DNA from: an uncultured bacterium
Lineage (GTDB): Bacteria > Armatimonadota > Hebobacteria > CAIYQO01
Direction of reading: 5' to 3'
Assembly (NCBI GenBank): GCA_964472305.1
Contig: CAYYJR010000001.1
Coordinates: 25,346-89,345 of the forward strand
DNA: 64,000 nt
Below are positions 55,994 to 58,777 of the stretch, one piece after another (the stretch's first letter is position 1; each line of letters begins with the position of its first letter). The notes under the pieces are model-generated. The model was given only the letters and a program-made list of their open reading frames with translations. It had not been told where the DNA came from and did not search any database. Made by a program: the position numbers and the translations under genes.

Positions 55994-58777
55994 GTGATTG
56001 CTAGAAAAAAACAGACACCCACCCACCACCTGAACCTGCCGCGGACAGCCTTCCCGATGCGGGCGCACCTGCCGCAGCGCGAGTTGGAGATATTGCGGCA
56101 CTGGGAAGCCATCGGCCTGTACCGGCTGGTGCAGCAGCGCACGGCGGATCGCCGACCGTTTCTCCTGCGTGACGGTCCACCGTTCTGCCATAGCGGCATC
56201 CACCTGGACCACGCGCTGAATAAGATACTCAAGGATATCATTGTCAAGTTTCGATCAATGCAGGGGTATGACGTGCCGTTCGTACCGGGGTGGGATGCCC
56301 ACGGTCTGCCGGTGGAAATTCAGGCGGTGCGCGCGTTTTCCGTCGCCCGCGGCGCCATCCCGCCGCGCGAGTTGCGTCGCGATTGCGCCCGCCTGGCGCG
56401 GAAATACAGTGAGCACCAGCGTGATCAGTTCAAACGGTTGGGTATACGCGGCGACTGGGCGCATCCCATCACTACCACCGATCCGTCGTACCAGGCAGCA
56501 GTGCTGGAGACGTTCCGGCGGTTGGTGGAGGCAAAGGCAGTCTATCGCGACATGCTGCCGGTATGGTGGTGCCCCACCTGCGAGACGGCGCTGGCGGACG
56601 CGGAACTGGAGTATGCCGATCGCGATGCGCACGACGCGCACATCGCCTTTCCCGTGCTGAGCTTGCCCGCCGGCGTGCTGCCGAAAGCCGATTCGTCGCG
56701 CTTGTCGGTGGTGGTGCGCGCCACCGCGCTGTGGATGCTGCCCGCCGGGGTGGGGGTGGGAGTAAACGCCGACGCTGACTATGCCCTGGTGACCGATGAG
56801 GACGACACGGAAGGCTTTACCTACCTGGTCGCCCGCACGGGAATGGATGCCTTTGCCCGTGCGGCGGGCATGCGCCGTCCGTGCGTGGTCAGCACACTCG
56901 CCGGTCAGGCATTGGTGGGCAGCACGTTGCGCCACCCGTTGCTGGCGCGCGAGTTACCGCTGATACCGGCGCCGGCGGCGGAGGGGACGGGCTTCGCGCT
57001 GCTTGTTCCCGGTCACCGGGTAGAAGATCTGGCGATTTCCCGCGCGCATGGATTGCCCATCGTGCAGCCGGTGGACTCGACGGGCAACTACGACCGTGAC
57101 GCCGGGCTGGTCGCCGGCCTGTCGCTCGCGGCCGGTGAGGAAGCCATGCTGGCGCGCATGGATCGCGATGGCACGCTGCTGGCGTATCGCACCACCACAC
57201 AGCCGGTGCCGCATTGCTGGCGCTGTCACGATCCGGCAGTGCGGCGCGCGCTGCCGCAGTGGTTTCTCGCCACCGCACCGCTGGTCGCGCGCGCGCGAGC
57301 AATGCTCAATCAGGTGAGCTGGTTGCCGGCATGGGGGCGGGCGCGCCTGGACGCGCTACTGGCGGGACGTCCCGATTGGTGCCTGTCGCGCCAGCATGTC
57401 TGGGGCACTCCCATCCCGGCCTTCACCTGCACCGCTTGCCGGACGCCGTTGCTTACCGCGGTGGCCATTGCCCATGTGCAGGCGATCATTGCGCGGGAAG
57501 GTGCCGATGCCTGGTATCGCCGCCCGGCGGCGGAACTCTTACCGCCGGAGACACGTTGCGACCGCTGCGGCGGGACGACTTTCCGCACCGGAACGGACGT
57601 TTTTGATGTATGGTTCGATTCAGCGTGCAGCCACCTGGCCGCACCGGAGGAAGAGCGGACGGCAGACCTGCTGGTCGAGGGGCAGGATCAATATCGCGGC
57701 TGGTTTCACCTGTCGCTGCTTGCCGGCGTAGGGAGTGGCGCGGCCCAAGCGCCGTACCGCGCGGTATTCAGCCACGGCTTCGTGCGTGACCGGCTGTGCC
57801 TTGCCGCGTCACCTGCCCAGCGCACCGACCCGCTGGGCATCGTACTGCATCACGGCGCCGACGTGCTGCGGCTCTGGGCTGCCGCCGCCGATGCGCGTGG
57901 TGACGTGGCGTTGTCCGATACCGCGCTGCGGCAGGCTATCGCCGCGTATCGTCGCCTGCGCAACACGGCACGCTTTCTGCTGGGCAACCTGTTCGACTTC
58001 ACACCGGCGCTGGTACAACCTGCGGCCGCGCTGGCGGAGAGCGACCGCTGGGCGCTACACCGGTTGGCGGAATGCGTCGACACGATGGCCGCGGCGTATG
58101 ACGGCTATGCCTTTCCGCGTGCCGTCCGCGCGGTTACCGCCTTGTGTGCCGAATTGTCCGCCGTCTATTTTTCGGTCGCGAAAGAACGGCTGTATTTGCC
58201 GGCGACGGGCGATCCCGCGCGAAGAGCGGCGCAGACGACCTGTTATCACCTCGTTGTCACGCTGGCGCAAGTGCTGGCGCCGCTGGTGAGCTTTACCGCC
58301 GACGATATCTGGCAGCACTTGCCCACCGGCGACCGCCCACCCAGCGCGCAGTTGACCGATTGGCCGGCGGTGGCGGGGTGGCGCGACACGGCACTGGCGG
58401 CACGGTGGACGCACCTGCTCGCTTTGCGCCGTGAGGTTGCCGCTGCCGTGCGGGTTGCCTGCCGCGCTCATGAAATTTCTCGGCCTGCGGCGGCAAAAGT
58501 TCTGCTGTACTCAGCAGGGGAAACACTCGGCTTGCTCGAATCCTTCGGAGATACGCTGGTGACAGCCTTTGCGGTATCGGCAATCGAGTTGGCGCCCTGG
58601 GATGACGCGCCTGCCGATGCCGTGCGGAGCGCACTGCCCAAACTGGCGATGCGGATTGTTCCGGCCGCCGGCGTATCCTGCCCGCGCTGCCGGCACTGGC
58701 GCGAGATAATGGATCGCGTTTCCGGGCTCTGCGCGCGCTGCCATGCCGCCGTGCACACTACGCATTCCGCCGAATAA
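55994..58777 (+). CDS. ileS: Isoleucyl-tRNA synthetase-like protein with degenerate catalytic signature motifs
   Basis: About 927 aa from GTG 55994. Clear IleS architecture (LNLPRTAFPMRAHLPQRELEILRHWEAIGLY; LNKILKDIIVK; WCPTCETALADAELEY; WCLSRQHVWGTPIP; DVWFDSACSH; C-terminal zinc finger). HIGH region reads PPFCHSGIHLDHA and the KMSKS position reads RLCLAASPAQR. Confidence 0.85.
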   Translation: MIARKKQTPTHHLNLPRTAFPMRAHLPQRELEILRHWEAIGLYRLVQQRTADRRPFLLRDGPPFCHSGIHLDHALNKILKDIIVKFRSMQGYDVPFVPGWDAHGLPVEIQAVRAFSVARGAIPPRELRRDCARLARKYSEHQRDQFKRLGIRGDWAHPITTTDPSYQAAVLETFRRLVEAKAVYRDMLPVWWCPTCETALADAELEYADRDAHDAHIAFPVLSLPAGVLPKADSSRLSVVVRATALWMLPAGVGVGVNADADYALVTDEDDTEGFTYLVARTGMDAFARAAGMRRPCVVSTLAGQALVGSTLRHPLLARELPLIPAPAAEGTGFALLVPGHRVEDLAISRAHGLPIVQPVDSTGNYDRDAGLVAGLSLAAGEEAMLARMDRDGTLLAYRTTTQPVPHCWRCHDPAVRRALPQWFLATAPLVARARAMLNQVSWLPAWGRARLDALLAGRPDWCLSRQHVWGTPIPAFTCTACRTPLLTAVAIAHVQAIIAREGADAWYRRPAAELLPPETRCDRCGGTTFRTGTDVFDVWFDSACSHLAAPEEERTADLLVEGQDQYRGWFHLSLLAGVGSGAAQAPYRAVFSHGFVRDRLCLAASPAQRTDPLGIVLHHGADVLRLWAAAADARGDVALSDTALRQAIAAYRRLRNTARFLLGNLFDFTPALVQPAAALAESDRWALHRLAECVDTMAAAYDGYAFPRAVRAVTALCAELSAVYFSVAKERLYLPATGDPARRAAQTTCYHLVVTLAQVLAPLVSFTADDIWQHLPTGDRPPSAQLTDWPAVAGWRDTALAARWTHLLALRREVAAAVRVACRAHEISRPAAAKVLLYSAGETLGLLESFGDTLVTAFAVSAIELAPWDDAPADAVRSALPKLAMRIVPAAGVSCPRCRHWREIMDRVSGLCARCHAAVHTTHSAE

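What the first reader, a model, noticed from the sequence alone, without database searches (positions are those of the whole stretch)
55994..58777. Full-length IleS-like gene with the HIGH and KMSKS signatures and the editing-site Thr motif all degenerate
The ORF is unmistakably isoleucyl-tRNA-synthetase-derived (N-terminal LNLPRTAFPMR, LNKILKDIIVK, CP1 entry WCPTCETALADAELEY, WCLSRQ, DVWFDS, C-terminal CxxC zinc finger). At the position of the class I HIGH motif (canonical PPYANGxIHIGHA) it reads PPFCHSGIHLDHA. At the KMSKS position (canonical HGFxxDxxGRKMSKSxGN...GADxLRLW) it reads HGFVRDRLCLAASPAQRTDPLGIVLHHGADVLRLW, so no KMSKS. In the editing domain the Thr-rich WTTTPWTLPAN is RATALWMLPAG and GTGAVHTAPGHG is GTGFALLVPGHR. 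Both active sites therefore look degenerate while the 2.8 kb reading frame is intact, which argues for a maintained non-catalytic IleS-derived paralog. I am not aware of a described IleS-derived pseudo-synthetase family.
Basis: partly seen in the sequence, partly recalled or inferred. Interest (0 to 1): 0.8.

Follow-up and report, generated by a model that had tools for sequence, protein, structure and literature searches.

The report
Catalytically dead but conserved IleRS gene
The isoleucyl-tRNA synthetase gene at its usual chromosomal place in this Armatimonadota bacterium has lost the residues needed for charging and proofreading yet stays intact, as in a clade of relatives, so it looks like a previously undescribed non-catalytic descendant of an essential translation enzyme.

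Summary
Window 55994-58777 (+) is an intact 927-codon IleRS1-type gene. HIGH reads HLDH, the KMSKS loop has no lysine and is two residues shorter, and both editing-site motifs are wrecked.

It is not an extra paralog. It occupies the ancestral ileS - dksA/traR - lspA - lgt - rluD position, as the canonical ileS of a complete Armatimonadota genome does.

About eight distinct Armatimonadota relatives (41-51% identical) share this synteny and are equally or more degenerate. Some have lost every synthetic-site motif. NJ bootstrap for the degenerate clade is 88-92%.

Three of those relatives give dN/dS of 0.34-0.40 by NG86 (bootstrap intervals within 0.28-0.46) and 0.12-0.24 by YN00. That is about four times the dN of carB, but clearly purifying selection.

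The window ORF has native codon usage and a confident IleRS1 fold (TM 0.86). An independent assembly gives the identical sequence.

Best reading: a selectively maintained, non-catalytic IleRS1 ortholog, with another IleRS doing the charging.

Main gap: I could not reach any whole genome, so no second IleRS has been demonstrated. The protein's actual role is inferred only.

The parts
55994..58777 (+). Full-length IleRS1-type ORF of 927 codons with a GTG start. The ORF is open from 55673. NCBI's start is the ATG at 56057.
   Evidence: AF2 model pLDDT 83.4, pTM 0.76; Foldseek to 8c9e/8c9f gives TM 0.86.
56201..56212 (+). HIGH-equivalent tetrapeptide HLDH, with Gly replaced by Asp.
   Evidence: HMMER register against 8c9e and MAFFT. 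An acidic residue at this position is shared by 6 of 8 clade members.
56717..56749 (+). Editing-site motif 1: RATALWMLPAG in place of WTTTPWTLPAN.
56984..57028 (+). Editing-site motif 2: GTGFALLVPGHRVED in place of GTGxVHTAPGHGxxD. His is replaced by Leu and Gly by Arg; the Asp is kept.
57773..57838 (+). KMSKS-equivalent loop HGFVRDRLCLAASPAQRTDPLG. It has no Lys and is two residues shorter than canonical.
   Evidence: Model residues 598-609 have pLDDT below 50.
56288..56311 (+). Retained GWDAHGLP motif, which in canonical IleRS holds the Asp that binds the amino group of the substrate.
   Evidence: The residue's role is from established knowledge of IleRS structures, not tested here.
57605..57703 (+). 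Retained DVWFDS and EGQDQYRGW synthetic-site motifs.
56567..57568 (+). Span containing two four-Cys sets: C193/C196 with C408/C411, and C479/C482 with C522/C525. All eight Cys are invariant in the degenerate clade.
57947..58498 (+). Anticodon-binding helical domain with the conserved YRRLRNT, DRWALHR and ARRAAQT motifs.
   Evidence: Pfam Anticodon_1, residues 684-835, E=6e-20. Clade invariants.
58679..58741 (+). C-terminal IleRS1-type zinc knuckle CPRC...CARC.
54387..55706 (+). Upstream TPR protein. A homolog lies upstream of the degenerate ortholog P0129 as well.
58911..59360 (+). DksA/TraR-type zinc-finger gene, 134 nt downstream. No terminator-like site lies between it and the ileS-like gene.
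59365..59856 (+). lspA (signal peptidase II, Peptidase_A8).
59853..60842 (+). lgt (prolipoprotein diacylglyceryl transferase).
61117..62094 (+). rluD-like pseudouridine synthase, the last gene of the conserved cluster.

Best explanation
This is the ancestral ileS1 gene of an Armatimonadota lineage. It can no longer make Ile-tRNA(Ile) or proofread, but selection keeps it as a folded, full-length, non-catalytic IleRS1 scaffold. The real charging enzyme is encoded elsewhere in the genome.

Shown:
- Loss of the HIGH Gly, of the whole KMSKS loop and of the editing-site Thr, Asn and His residues.
- Positional orthology with canonical ileS1.
- Membership of a clade of equally or more degenerate orthologs.
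- Purifying selection in that clade.
- Native codon usage and a confident IleRS1 fold.

Inferred:
- A second IleRS exists in this genome.
- Because the fold, eight conserved Cys residues (probable zinc ligands), the anticodon-domain motifs and, in this member, the isoleucine-pocket motifs survive, the protein most likely still binds tRNA(Ile) and perhaps isoleucine.
- It would then act stoichiometrically, as a tRNA(Ile) binding, buffering or sensing factor expressed together with the lspA-lgt lipoprotein genes, rather than as a catalyst.
For: 1. Motif loss is in register with solved IleRS1 and in a full-length IleRS1 fold.
2. Published tests bear on HIGH: all 158 sampled IleRS1 carry HXGH; changing the motif to GXHH abolished activity in P. 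megaterium and E. coli IleRS1; the Gly is said to accommodate the adenine base (PMC10485003).
3. The ileS - dksA/traR - lspA - lgt - rluD synteny is the same as for canonical P0026 in complete genome CP070648.1. It also holds for every degenerate relative examined: P0009, P0015, P0017, P0127, P0129, P0138, P0199.
4. NJ bootstrap is 88% for the degenerate clade and 92% for the window gene grouped with the most degenerate members. Several of those lack HIGH, KMSKS, EGxDQ and DVWFDS altogether, so their hosts must have another IleRS.
5. TIGR00392 scores form a gradient: 937 and 925 bits for canonical proteins, 594 for this gene, down to 387, against a cut-off of 621.
6. dN/dS among P0015, P0017 and P0127 is 0.34-0.40 by NG86 (bootstrap intervals 0.28-0.46) and 0.12-0.24 by YN00. 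This is similar to lspA and lgt in the same genomes.
7. The frame has 0 stops against 14 and 18 in the other frames. GC1/GC2/GC3 are 0.71/0.53/0.76, and RSCU correlates at r=0.92 with neighbouring genes.
8. If the roughly 260 extra amino-acid replacements had been unselected, about 10 nonsense mutations would be expected, giving P of about 3e-5 for none.
9. In the clade, 144 of 337 canonical conserved columns are kept. These include eight Cys residues in four pairs (probable zinc ligands), GADxLRxW, YRRxR, DRWxLxR and RRxxQT.
10. A Logan assembly of SRR12261225 gives the identical sequence.
Against: - No second IleRS was found. There is none in the window, and no whole genome of any clade member could be searched.
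- dN/dS could not be measured on the window gene's own branch. Its nearest relative is 53% identical, so synonymous sites are saturated.
- Clade monophyly rests on neighbour-joining with long branches, so long-branch attraction is possible.
- The protein databases only return intact ORFs, so disrupted copies would have been missed.
- The composition is shifted: GARP 0.387 against 0.29-0.35 for other window proteins, and GC2 of 0.53. The distance to the outgroup is about 40% longer. Both indicate strongly relaxed constraint.
- Anticodon-contact positions inferred from PmIleRS2 are not uniformly kept across the clade, so tRNA binding is not secure.
- There is no expression evidence.
Confidence: 0.6

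Rival explanations
1. The gene is a relic on its way to becoming a pseudogene. The protein has no function. The frame stays open only because the loss is recent, or because premature stops would be polar on the essential downstream lspA and lgt genes.
For: - Constraint is relaxed: 27% of canonical near-invariant residues have changed.
- Composition has drifted, with GARP and GC2 above neighbours.
- The branch is long.
- The gene sits upstream of dksA-lspA-lgt with no terminator-like site between them.
- An unrelated degenerate IleS-like gene (P0189) also sits near lgt.
Against: - Polarity alone would not hold dN/dS at 0.34-0.40 in the relatives.
- It would not keep 144 of 337 conserved columns, including all eight conserved Cys residues (probable zinc ligands), across proteins only 41-51% identical.
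- It would not prevent in-frame shrinkage; all members are 891-948 aa.
- The loss is old. It is shared by deeply diverged lineages with the same synteny.
- About 10 nonsense mutations would be expected under neutrality.
Confidence: 0.13
2. It is still the cell's working, and perhaps only, IleRS, using non-canonical catalytic residues in the way some ArgRS lack the KMSKS lysines.
For: - It sits at the canonical ileS locus.
- No other ileS lies in the window.
- The isoleucine-pocket and EGxDQ, DVWFDS, HGF and GWDxHGLP motifs are intact.
- Both His residues of HIGH are kept.
Against: - There is no Lys anywhere in a shortened KMSKS loop.
- Asp replaces the HIGH Gly. IleRS1 did not tolerate the one HXGH alteration that has been tested, the GXHH swap (PMC10485003).
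- The editing site has lost its Thr, Asn and His residues.
- The TIGR00392 score is below the cut-off.
- Clade relatives have lost every synthetic-site motif.
- dN in the measured relatives (P0017/P0127) is about four times that of carB.
Confidence: 0.08
3. It has become a different enzyme or a ligand trap that uses the surviving isoleucine/adenylate pocket. Examples would be an Ile-tRNA-dependent aminoacyl transferase like SbzA, or a decoy for IleRS-targeting antibiotics.
For: - Pocket motifs are retained in this member and in P0009.
- A conserved acidic residue sits at the HIGH Gly position in 6 of 8 members.
- SbzA shows that IleRS homologs can be recruited as transferases (PMC6331615).
Against: - There is no biosynthetic gene cluster around it; the neighbours are housekeeping genes.
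- SbzA keeps HIGH and KMSKS and is of IleRS2 type.
- The pocket motifs are lost in other clade members (P0129, P0138), so a pocket-based function cannot be the function shared by the clade.
Confidence: 0.12
4. It is a sequencing, assembly or binning artefact.
For: The sequence comes from a metagenome-assembled genome.
Against: A Logan assembly of SRR12261225 is identical over 13.8 kb. Eight independent relatives from other samples show the same kind of changes.
Confidence: 0.01

Closest known systems
Canonical bacterial IleRS1 (ileS; TIGR00392; e.g. P. megaterium IleRS1, PDB 8c9e, and S. aureus IleRS, 1ffy)
   Same: It has the same fold end to end (TM 0.86) and the same domain order, including the CP1 editing domain, the anticodon-binding domain and the C-terminal zinc knuckle. 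It sits in the same chromosomal cluster with dksA/traR(ylyA)-lspA-rluD. That this matches the B. subtilis gene order is from my own knowledge.
   Different: HIGH reads HLDH, there is no KMSKS, and the editing-site Thr, Asn and His residues are replaced. The HMM score is below the curated cut-off (594 against 621). The rate of change is faster and the composition is shifted.
Low-activity or inactive duplicated class I synthetases: N. magadii LeuRS2 (PMC4005665) and Sulfolobus LeuRS-I (cited in PMC9437257)
   Same: These are full-length class Ia synthetase homologs with altered KMSKS and no editing, which retain tRNA affinity and coexist with an active copy. They are the best functional analogy.
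   Different: They are extra LeuRS copies in archaea that keep measurable activity. Here it is IleRS1 in a bacterium, the ancestral locus itself has degenerated, the loss is far more complete, and no active partner has yet been seen.
IleRS2 / MupA / MupB (mupirocin-resistant second IleRS)
   Same: This is the only well-known case of two IleRS genes in one bacterium, and a likely kind of replacement enzyme.
   Different: The window protein is IleRS1 type. It scores 172-199 bits against the MupA and MupB models, whose cut-off is 1900, and it has the type-1 C-terminal zinc domain. IleRS2 enzymes are active.
SbzA, an IleRS-like Ile-tRNA-dependent aminoacyl transferase (PMC6331615)
   Same: It is an IleRS homolog recruited to a role outside translation.
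   Different: SbzA keeps HIGH and KMSKS, still charges tRNA weakly, is of IleRS2 type and lies in a biosynthetic gene cluster. None of this applies here.
Classical aaRS-derived non-catalytic paralogs such as HisZ (listed in PMC9437257)
   Same: These are synthetase-derived proteins kept for binding or regulatory roles.
   Different: They are truncated or rearranged extra copies with known partners. This one is full length, occupies the original locus, and has no known partner.

Membership tests
Functional isoleucine--tRNA ligase (EC 6.1.1.5; NCBIfam TIGR00392 equivalog) | Whole-protein HMM score at or above the curated cut-off of 621.4 bits. | tested here: not met
   It scores 594.1 bits. Canonical relatives score 925-937, and more degenerate clade members score 387-595.
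Functional isoleucine--tRNA ligase (EC 6.1.1.5; NCBIfam TIGR00392 equivalog) | Class I HIGH (HxGH) signature. | tested here: not met
   It reads HLDH in the HMMER and MAFFT registers. HXGH was found in all 158 sampled IleRS1, and altering it (the GXHH swap) abolished IleRS1 activity (PMC10485003).
Functional isoleucine--tRNA ligase (EC 6.1.1.5; NCBIfam TIGR00392 equivalog) | KMSKS loop with catalytic lysines. | tested here: not met
   It reads RLCLAAS, with no Lys, and is two residues shorter. The loop has low confidence in the model.
Functional isoleucine--tRNA ligase (EC 6.1.1.5; NCBIfam TIGR00392 equivalog) | CP1 editing-site residues: the Thr-rich WTTTPWTxPAN motif and the His of GTGxVHxAPGHG. 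| tested here: not met
   They read RATALWMLPAG and GTGFALLVPGHR.
Functional isoleucine--tRNA ligase (EC 6.1.1.5; NCBIfam TIGR00392 equivalog) | Isoleucine activation and tRNA(Ile) charging activity. | not testable with these tools
   This needs ATP-PPi exchange and aminoacylation assays.
IleRS1 lineage (descent, not activity) | IleRS1 fold and domain order with the type-1 C-terminal zinc-binding domain. | tested here: met
   8c9e at E=2e-185 over residues 13-919. Foldseek TM 0.86. CPRC...CARC is present.
IleRS1 lineage (descent, not activity) | Ancestral gene neighbourhood of ileS followed by dksA/traR-lspA(-lgt)-rluD. | tested here: met
IleRS2 / MupA / MupB | Match to the type-2 models and a type-2 C-terminal domain. 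| tested here: not met
   MupB 199 bits and MupA 172 bits against a cut-off of 1900. The IleRS2 structure 8c9d matches far more weakly than IleRS1 8c9e (E=8e-68 against 2e-185).
Pseudogene | Frameshifts, internal stops or truncation. | tested here: not met
   There are 927 codons without a stop, colinear with 8c9e throughout.
Pseudogene | Neutral evolution (dN/dS about 1). | tested here: inconclusive
   This could not be measured on this branch. The relatives P0015, P0017 and P0127 give 0.34-0.40 by NG86 (intervals 0.28-0.46).
Pseudo-synthetase coexisting with an active copy (NmLeuRS2 / LeuRS-I type) | A second, active synthetase of the same specificity in the same genome. | not testable with these tools
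   There is none in the window.
Pseudo-synthetase coexisting with an active copy (NmLeuRS2 / LeuRS-I type) | Degenerate catalytic motifs with the full-length protein retained under selection. | tested here: met
SbzA-like aminoacyl transferase | Location in a biosynthetic gene cluster, with HIGH and KMSKS retained. | tested here: not met
   The neighbours are housekeeping genes and the motifs are lost.

The most novel reading that the evidence does not exclude
A lineage of Armatimonadota has turned its ancestral, essential IleRS1 into a conserved pseudoenzyme with a new stoichiometric role. That role would be tRNA(Ile)- or isoleucine-dependent sensing or buffering, tied to the co-located DksA-like, LspA and Lgt genes. 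A xenologous or alternative IleRS would have taken over charging. This would be the first described IleRS-derived pseudo-synthetase family. It would also be a rare case of an essential translation gene being repurposed at its original locus rather than through a duplicate.
Probability: 0.3. Interest if true: 0.8.

Novelty: new variant of a known kind. Interest (0 to 1): 0.64.

Why it matters
IleRS is reported as one of the most evolutionarily stable synthetases, with few paralogs (PMC5388404). HXGH has been reported as present in every sampled IleRS1 (PMC10485003). Bacteria are said to rely on either ileS1 or ileS2 alone, with both kept only in Bacillaceae (bioRxiv 10.1101/2022.02.09.479832).

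A clade that keeps a catalytically dead ileS1 at the ancestral locus under purifying selection contradicts the expectation that a replaced synthetase gene is simply deleted. It offers a natural series, from KQSKS variants to total motif loss, for studying how an essential enzyme is replaced and what non-catalytic roles class I synthetase scaffolds can hold.

It also matters for annotation. Some members are named isoleucine--tRNA ligase in public records. That would overstate the translation capacity of those genomes and hide the real IleRS.

Tried and rejected
1. Second IleRS in the source genome. tblastn of a canonical IleRS against the window found only this gene. The exact-protein look-up for the NCBI product failed, and a neighbouring gene returned only the Logan contig.

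2. Candidate replacement enzyme. A distinct, intact IleS ('type B': HLGT, KMSKR, not next to lspA) is the IleRS of Fimbriimonadia and Chthonomonas. A profile search returned 120 near-equal hits, none attributable to a genome of the degenerate clade. Amino-acid composition did not single out a candidate. This remains unresolved, not rejected.

3. Metagenome DNA pattern for CWxC-x9-P[QH]WF. It was meant to sample the clade regardless of ORF integrity. All 77 IleS-like loci recovered were 39% identical or less.

4. Word-index search with the degenerate-clade profile gave no new members.

6. T-box or other leader. Rfam found nothing upstream of this gene or of seven related loci, including the canonical one.

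7. Promoter and terminator scans gave counts at shuffle level.

8. Assembly error was rejected.

9. I tried to map anticodon-contact residues from the PmIleRS2 paper. The register to IleRS1 was too uncertain to use as evidence.
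Full report
**1. What is in the sequence**

Window 55673-58777 (+) is one open frame. The GTG at 55994 lies 12 codons before the conserved IleRS N-terminal motif LNLPRTAFPMR. It has a GGGGA stretch 9-13 nt upstream, and relatives start at the equivalent point. 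The public NCBI product (P0001, 906 aa) starts at the ATG at 56057, inside that motif.

- The 927-residue protein matches Pfam tRNA-synt_1 (E=6e-90) and Anticodon_1.
- It matches TIGR00392 ileS at 594.1 bits, just under the curated cut-off of 621.4.
- It aligns colinearly, residues 13-919, with P. megaterium IleRS1 (8c9e, E=2e-185) and S. aureus IleRS.
- An AlphaFold2 model built on a 16-sequence alignment has mean pLDDT 83.4 and pTM 0.76. Foldseek places it on 8c9e/8c9f with TM 0.86 over the full length.

**2. The motifs**

The registers come from HMMER against 8c9e, with top posterior marks around each motif, and from MAFFT against 59 homologs.

| Site | Canonical | This gene | Window nt |
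|---|---|---|---|
| HIGH | PPYANGDIHMGHA | PPFCHSGIHLDHA | 56201-56212 (HLDH) |
| KMSKS loop | GRKMSKSLGN | RLCLAASPAQ (no Lys, two residues shorter) | 57773-57838 |
| Editing motif 1 | WTTTPWTMPAN | RATALWMLPAG | 56717-56749 |
| Editing motif 2 | GTGCVHTAPGHG | GTGFALLVPGHR | 56984-57028 |

- The KMSKS-equivalent loop (model residues 598-609) has pLDDT below 50.
- GWDAHGLP, DVWFDS, EGQDQYRGW, HGF and GADVLRLW are retained. So are two four-Cys sets and the C-terminal CPRC...CARC.
- Of 280 columns near-invariant in 43 canonical IleRS1, this protein keeps 73%. Losses are concentrated in CP1 (57% kept) and the KMSKS region (61% kept).

**3. Not chance, not an artefact**

- The frame has no stop in 927 codons. 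The other two forward frames have 14 and 18.
- Position-specific GC is 0.71/0.53/0.76, and RSCU correlates at r=0.92 with the pooled neighbours. Both are coding-like and native.
- A Logan assembly of run SRR12261225 is 100% identical over 13,788 bp.

**4. Where it sits**

Downstream follow a DksA/TraR zinc-finger gene, lspA, lgt and an rluD-like gene.

- The canonical ileS (HLGQ, KMSKS) of a complete Armatimonadota genome, CP070648.1, has the same four genes behind it.
- From my own knowledge, this is also the B. subtilis order: ileS-ylyA-lspA-rluD.

So the gene is the positional ortholog of ileS1, not an additional copy inserted elsewhere. No other IleRS-like sequence is in the 64-kb window. 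The rest of the window is ordinary chromosome, with ffh, dnaX, hydrogenase genes and glycosidases. No T-box or other Rfam leader precedes the gene here or in seven related loci.

**5. It is one of a clade**

The nearest database proteins are Armatimonadota IleS1 orthologs, 48-53% identical. They show a gradient.

- Several keep HLGH, an intact editing site and KQSKS in place of KMSKS. These keep 92-94% of invariant columns.
- Others have odd loops such as RQQTKS, ETLSKT and QKHAKL, and a replaced editing His.
- P0009, P0012, P0014, P0015 and P0017 have no KMSKS at all.

An exhaustive HMMER search of 1.84 billion cluster representatives added P0127, P0129, P0138 and P0199. In these, HIGH reads GFDH, QFEQ, RLEV and RMGP.

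- In P0129, EGxDQ, DVWFDS and HGF are also gone.
- NCBI names P0129 only 'class I tRNA ligase family protein [Armatimonadota bacterium]'.
- TIGR00392 scores fall from 937 and 925 bits (canonical) through 752 and 725 to 595, 594 (this gene), 497, 475 and 387.

Neighbour-joining with 300 bootstraps gives these supports.

- 100% for the whole Armatimonadota group.
- 88% for the degenerate clade: P0009, P0129, the window gene, P0138, P0199/P0276, P0015, P0127 and P0017.
- 92% for the window gene grouped with the most degenerate members.

Shared rare states support this grouping.

- The 'ACS' in DVWFDSACSH.
- The 'DRL' after HGFV.
- A two-residue loop deletion shared with P0009.
- An acidic residue at the HIGH Gly position in 6 of 8 members.

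Long-branch attraction remains a caveat. Every clade member whose contig I could read lies in the same ileS-like - dksA/traR - lspA - lgt (- rluD) cluster. P0129 also shares the upstream TPR gene with the window.

**6. Is it maintained?**

All members are 891-948 aa.

- Across the nine aligned clade sequences (41-51% identical to the window protein), about 130 positions are invariant. They include all eight Cys of two probable zinc sites, GADxLRxW, and the anticodon-domain motifs YRRxR, DRWxLxR and RRxxQT.
- 144 of 337 canonical conserved columns are kept in at least 7 of 8 members.

For P0015, P0017 and P0127, which are all fully degenerate and 65-67% identical, the ileS-like gene gives NG86 dN/dS of 0.34-0.40 (bootstrap intervals 0.28-0.46) and YN00 values of 0.12-0.24. 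Genes flanking the ileS-like gene on the same contigs serve as controls.

| Gene (P0015/P0017/P0127 contigs) | NG86 dN/dS |
|---|---|
| ileS-like | 0.34-0.40 |
| lspA | 0.34-0.43 |
| lgt | 0.32-0.42 |
| GGT | 0.17 |
| carB | 0.13 |
| dksA-like | 0.05 |

In the P0017/P0127 comparison the degenerate gene changes about four times faster than carB, a large housekeeping enzyme (dN 0.23 against 0.057). It is still clearly under purifying selection, long after the motifs were lost.

For the window gene itself, synonymous sites are saturated against every relative, so I used an indirect argument.

- Its distance to a Firmicutes outgroup is 1.00, against 0.71-0.75 for canonical-like relatives. That is roughly 260 extra replacements.
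- With a nonsense-to-missense opportunity ratio of 0.0405 for its codons, about 10 nonsense mutations would be expected if those changes were unselected. The probability of none is about 3e-5, before counting indels.

Signs of relaxation are real. GARP is 0.387 against 0.29-0.35 for other window proteins, and gene GC is 0.667 with GC2 of 0.53.

**7. Is it catalytically dead?**

This is inferred, not measured.

- The held literature reports HXGH in all 158 sampled IleRS1.
- It reports that swapping the motif to GXHH abolished product formation in P. megaterium and E. coli IleRS1.
- It states that the Gly accommodates the adenine base and that the first His stabilises the transition state (PMC10485003).

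Here Gly is Asp and the KMSKS loop has no lysine. The editing site has lost two of three Thr residues, the Asn and the His. Clade relatives that have lost every synthetic-site motif cannot be synthetases, so their hosts must charge tRNA(Ile) with another enzyme. By parsimony the same holds for the window organism.

I could not show that enzyme. The source genome is absent from the genome collection. Exact-protein look-ups did not reach the NCBI record.

A candidate class exists. It is an intact IleS of a different type (HLGT, KMSKR, 828 bits) that serves Fimbriimonadia and Chthonomonas and lies away from lspA. It could not be tied to any genome of the degenerate clade.

**8. How it most likely works**

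My best account, at confidence 0.6 for the whole statement, is as follows. The ancestral ileS1 lost catalysis after another IleRS made it redundant. The folded scaffold was kept for a non-catalytic role.

- What survives is the overall architecture, the eight conserved Cys residues (probable zinc ligands), the anticodon-binding domain signatures and, in this member and P0009, the amino-acid pocket.
- This points to binding of tRNA(Ile), and perhaps isoleucine, as the retained property.
- The constant linkage to the DksA-like, LspA and Lgt genes suggests co-expression with them.
- The specific role (buffering, chaperoning or sensing tRNA(Ile)) is speculation.

Rivals:

- **Relic kept open by recency or by polarity on lspA and lgt (0.13).** This is disfavoured by dN/dS, by residue-level conservation, by constant length and by the age of the loss.
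- **A working IleRS with non-canonical chemistry (0.08).** This is disfavoured by the motif evidence and by the relatives.
- **A new pocket-based enzyme or antibiotic decoy (0.12).** This is disfavoured by the housekeeping neighbourhood and by loss of the pocket in other members.
- **Artefact (0.01).**

**9. Comparison with what is known**

Known IleRS duplicates are IleRS2/MupA/MupB, which are active and of type 2, and SbzA, which is of type 2, keeps HIGH and KMSKS, and lies in a gene cluster.

The nearest functional analogies are N. magadii LeuRS2 and Sulfolobus LeuRS-I. NmLeuRS2 has an altered KMSKS, no editing and retained tRNA affinity. These are extra copies, in archaea, and still weakly active.

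Searches of the held literature found no description of an IleRS1-derived inactive family or of degeneration of the ileS gene at the ileS-lspA locus.

I therefore rate it a new variant of a known kind, namely synthetase-derived pseudoenzymes. By descent it belongs to the IleRS1 lineage. It fails the defining tests of a functional IleRS: HMM cut-off, HIGH, KMSKS and editing site.

**10. Limits**

- No whole genome could be examined.
- There are no expression data.
- Clade sampling comes from protein databases that only report intact ORFs.
- The phylogeny is by neighbour-joining only.
- dN/dS was measured on relatives, not on this branch.

**Verdict**

- Observation: confirmed.
- Interpretation: partly supported. 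The gene is degenerate and maintained. It is an ortholog at the ancestral locus, not a demonstrated paralog.
- Interest: 0.64.

Noticed in passing
Proteins P0169, P0189, P0191, P0237, P0245, P0145, P0171; locus L216:10001-12943: Unrelated lineages also hold full-length IleS1-like proteins with wrecked HIGH and/or KMSKS motifs. P0169 (a Bacillota MAG) has lost the synthetic motifs but keeps the editing motifs. P0189 is followed by a 1105-aa unknown gene and two lgt copies, and is preceded by a 352-aa class II synthetase paralog. Degenerate IleRS1 copies may be a wider phenomenon.
   Followed up: partly
Loci L008-L031, e.g. L016:9983-12844: Fimbriimonadia and Chthonomonas Armatimonadota use a distinct, intact IleS type (HLGT, KMSK[RS], TIGR00392 828 bits). 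It is not adjacent to dksA-lspA-lgt. It is a candidate for the enzyme that replaced ileS1 in the degenerate clade.
   Followed up: partly
Window 56201-56212 and the aligned positions in P0015, P0017, P0127, P0129, P0138: The HIGH glycine is replaced by Asp or Glu in 6 of 8 clade members. This looks like a conserved substitution rather than random decay.
   Followed up: no
Window 56810-56833 (EGFTYLVA): A motif inside the CP1 insertion, D..D.EGFTYLVA, is conserved across the whole Armatimonadota group but is variable in other IleRS1. Its meaning is unknown.
   Followed up: no
Window 55994-58777: The gene has GC of 0.667 and GC2 of 0.53, and its protein has a GARP fraction of 0.387. All three are above nearly all of the neighbouring genes examined. 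This is consistent with mutation-driven compositional drift under relaxed constraint.
   Followed up: yes
Window 16786-16943 (-): A ribosomal protein L10 leader (RF00557, 45.5 bits against a gathering score of 44) is the only Rfam hit in the window.
   Followed up: no
Window 23862-26225 (-) and 26334-28577 (-): An [FeFe]-hydrogenase large subunit fused to 2Fe-2S and 4Fe-4S modules lies next to a NuoF-like flavoprotein. This looks like an electron-bifurcating hydrogenase module.
   Followed up: no
Window 42006-43865 (-) and 43875-45596 (-): Two adjacent large ORFs (619 and 573 aa, GC3 0.80-0.84) have no Pfam match at E<=1e-5.
   Followed up: no
Window 33066-35336 (-) and 38672-40816 (-): Two GH36 (melibiase-like) paralogs lie within 6 kb of each other.
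   Followed up: no
Proteins P0121, P0123, P0124: The 90% cluster of the window protein contains three unrelated 33-51-aa ENA peptides. This is a clustering artefact, not fragments of this gene.
   Followed up: yes
Window 56255-56935 (-) and other long antisense ORFs: ORFs of 100-226 aa overlap the gene on other frames and on the opposite strand. They are the usual product of high GC content and there is no evidence that they code.
   Followed up: partly
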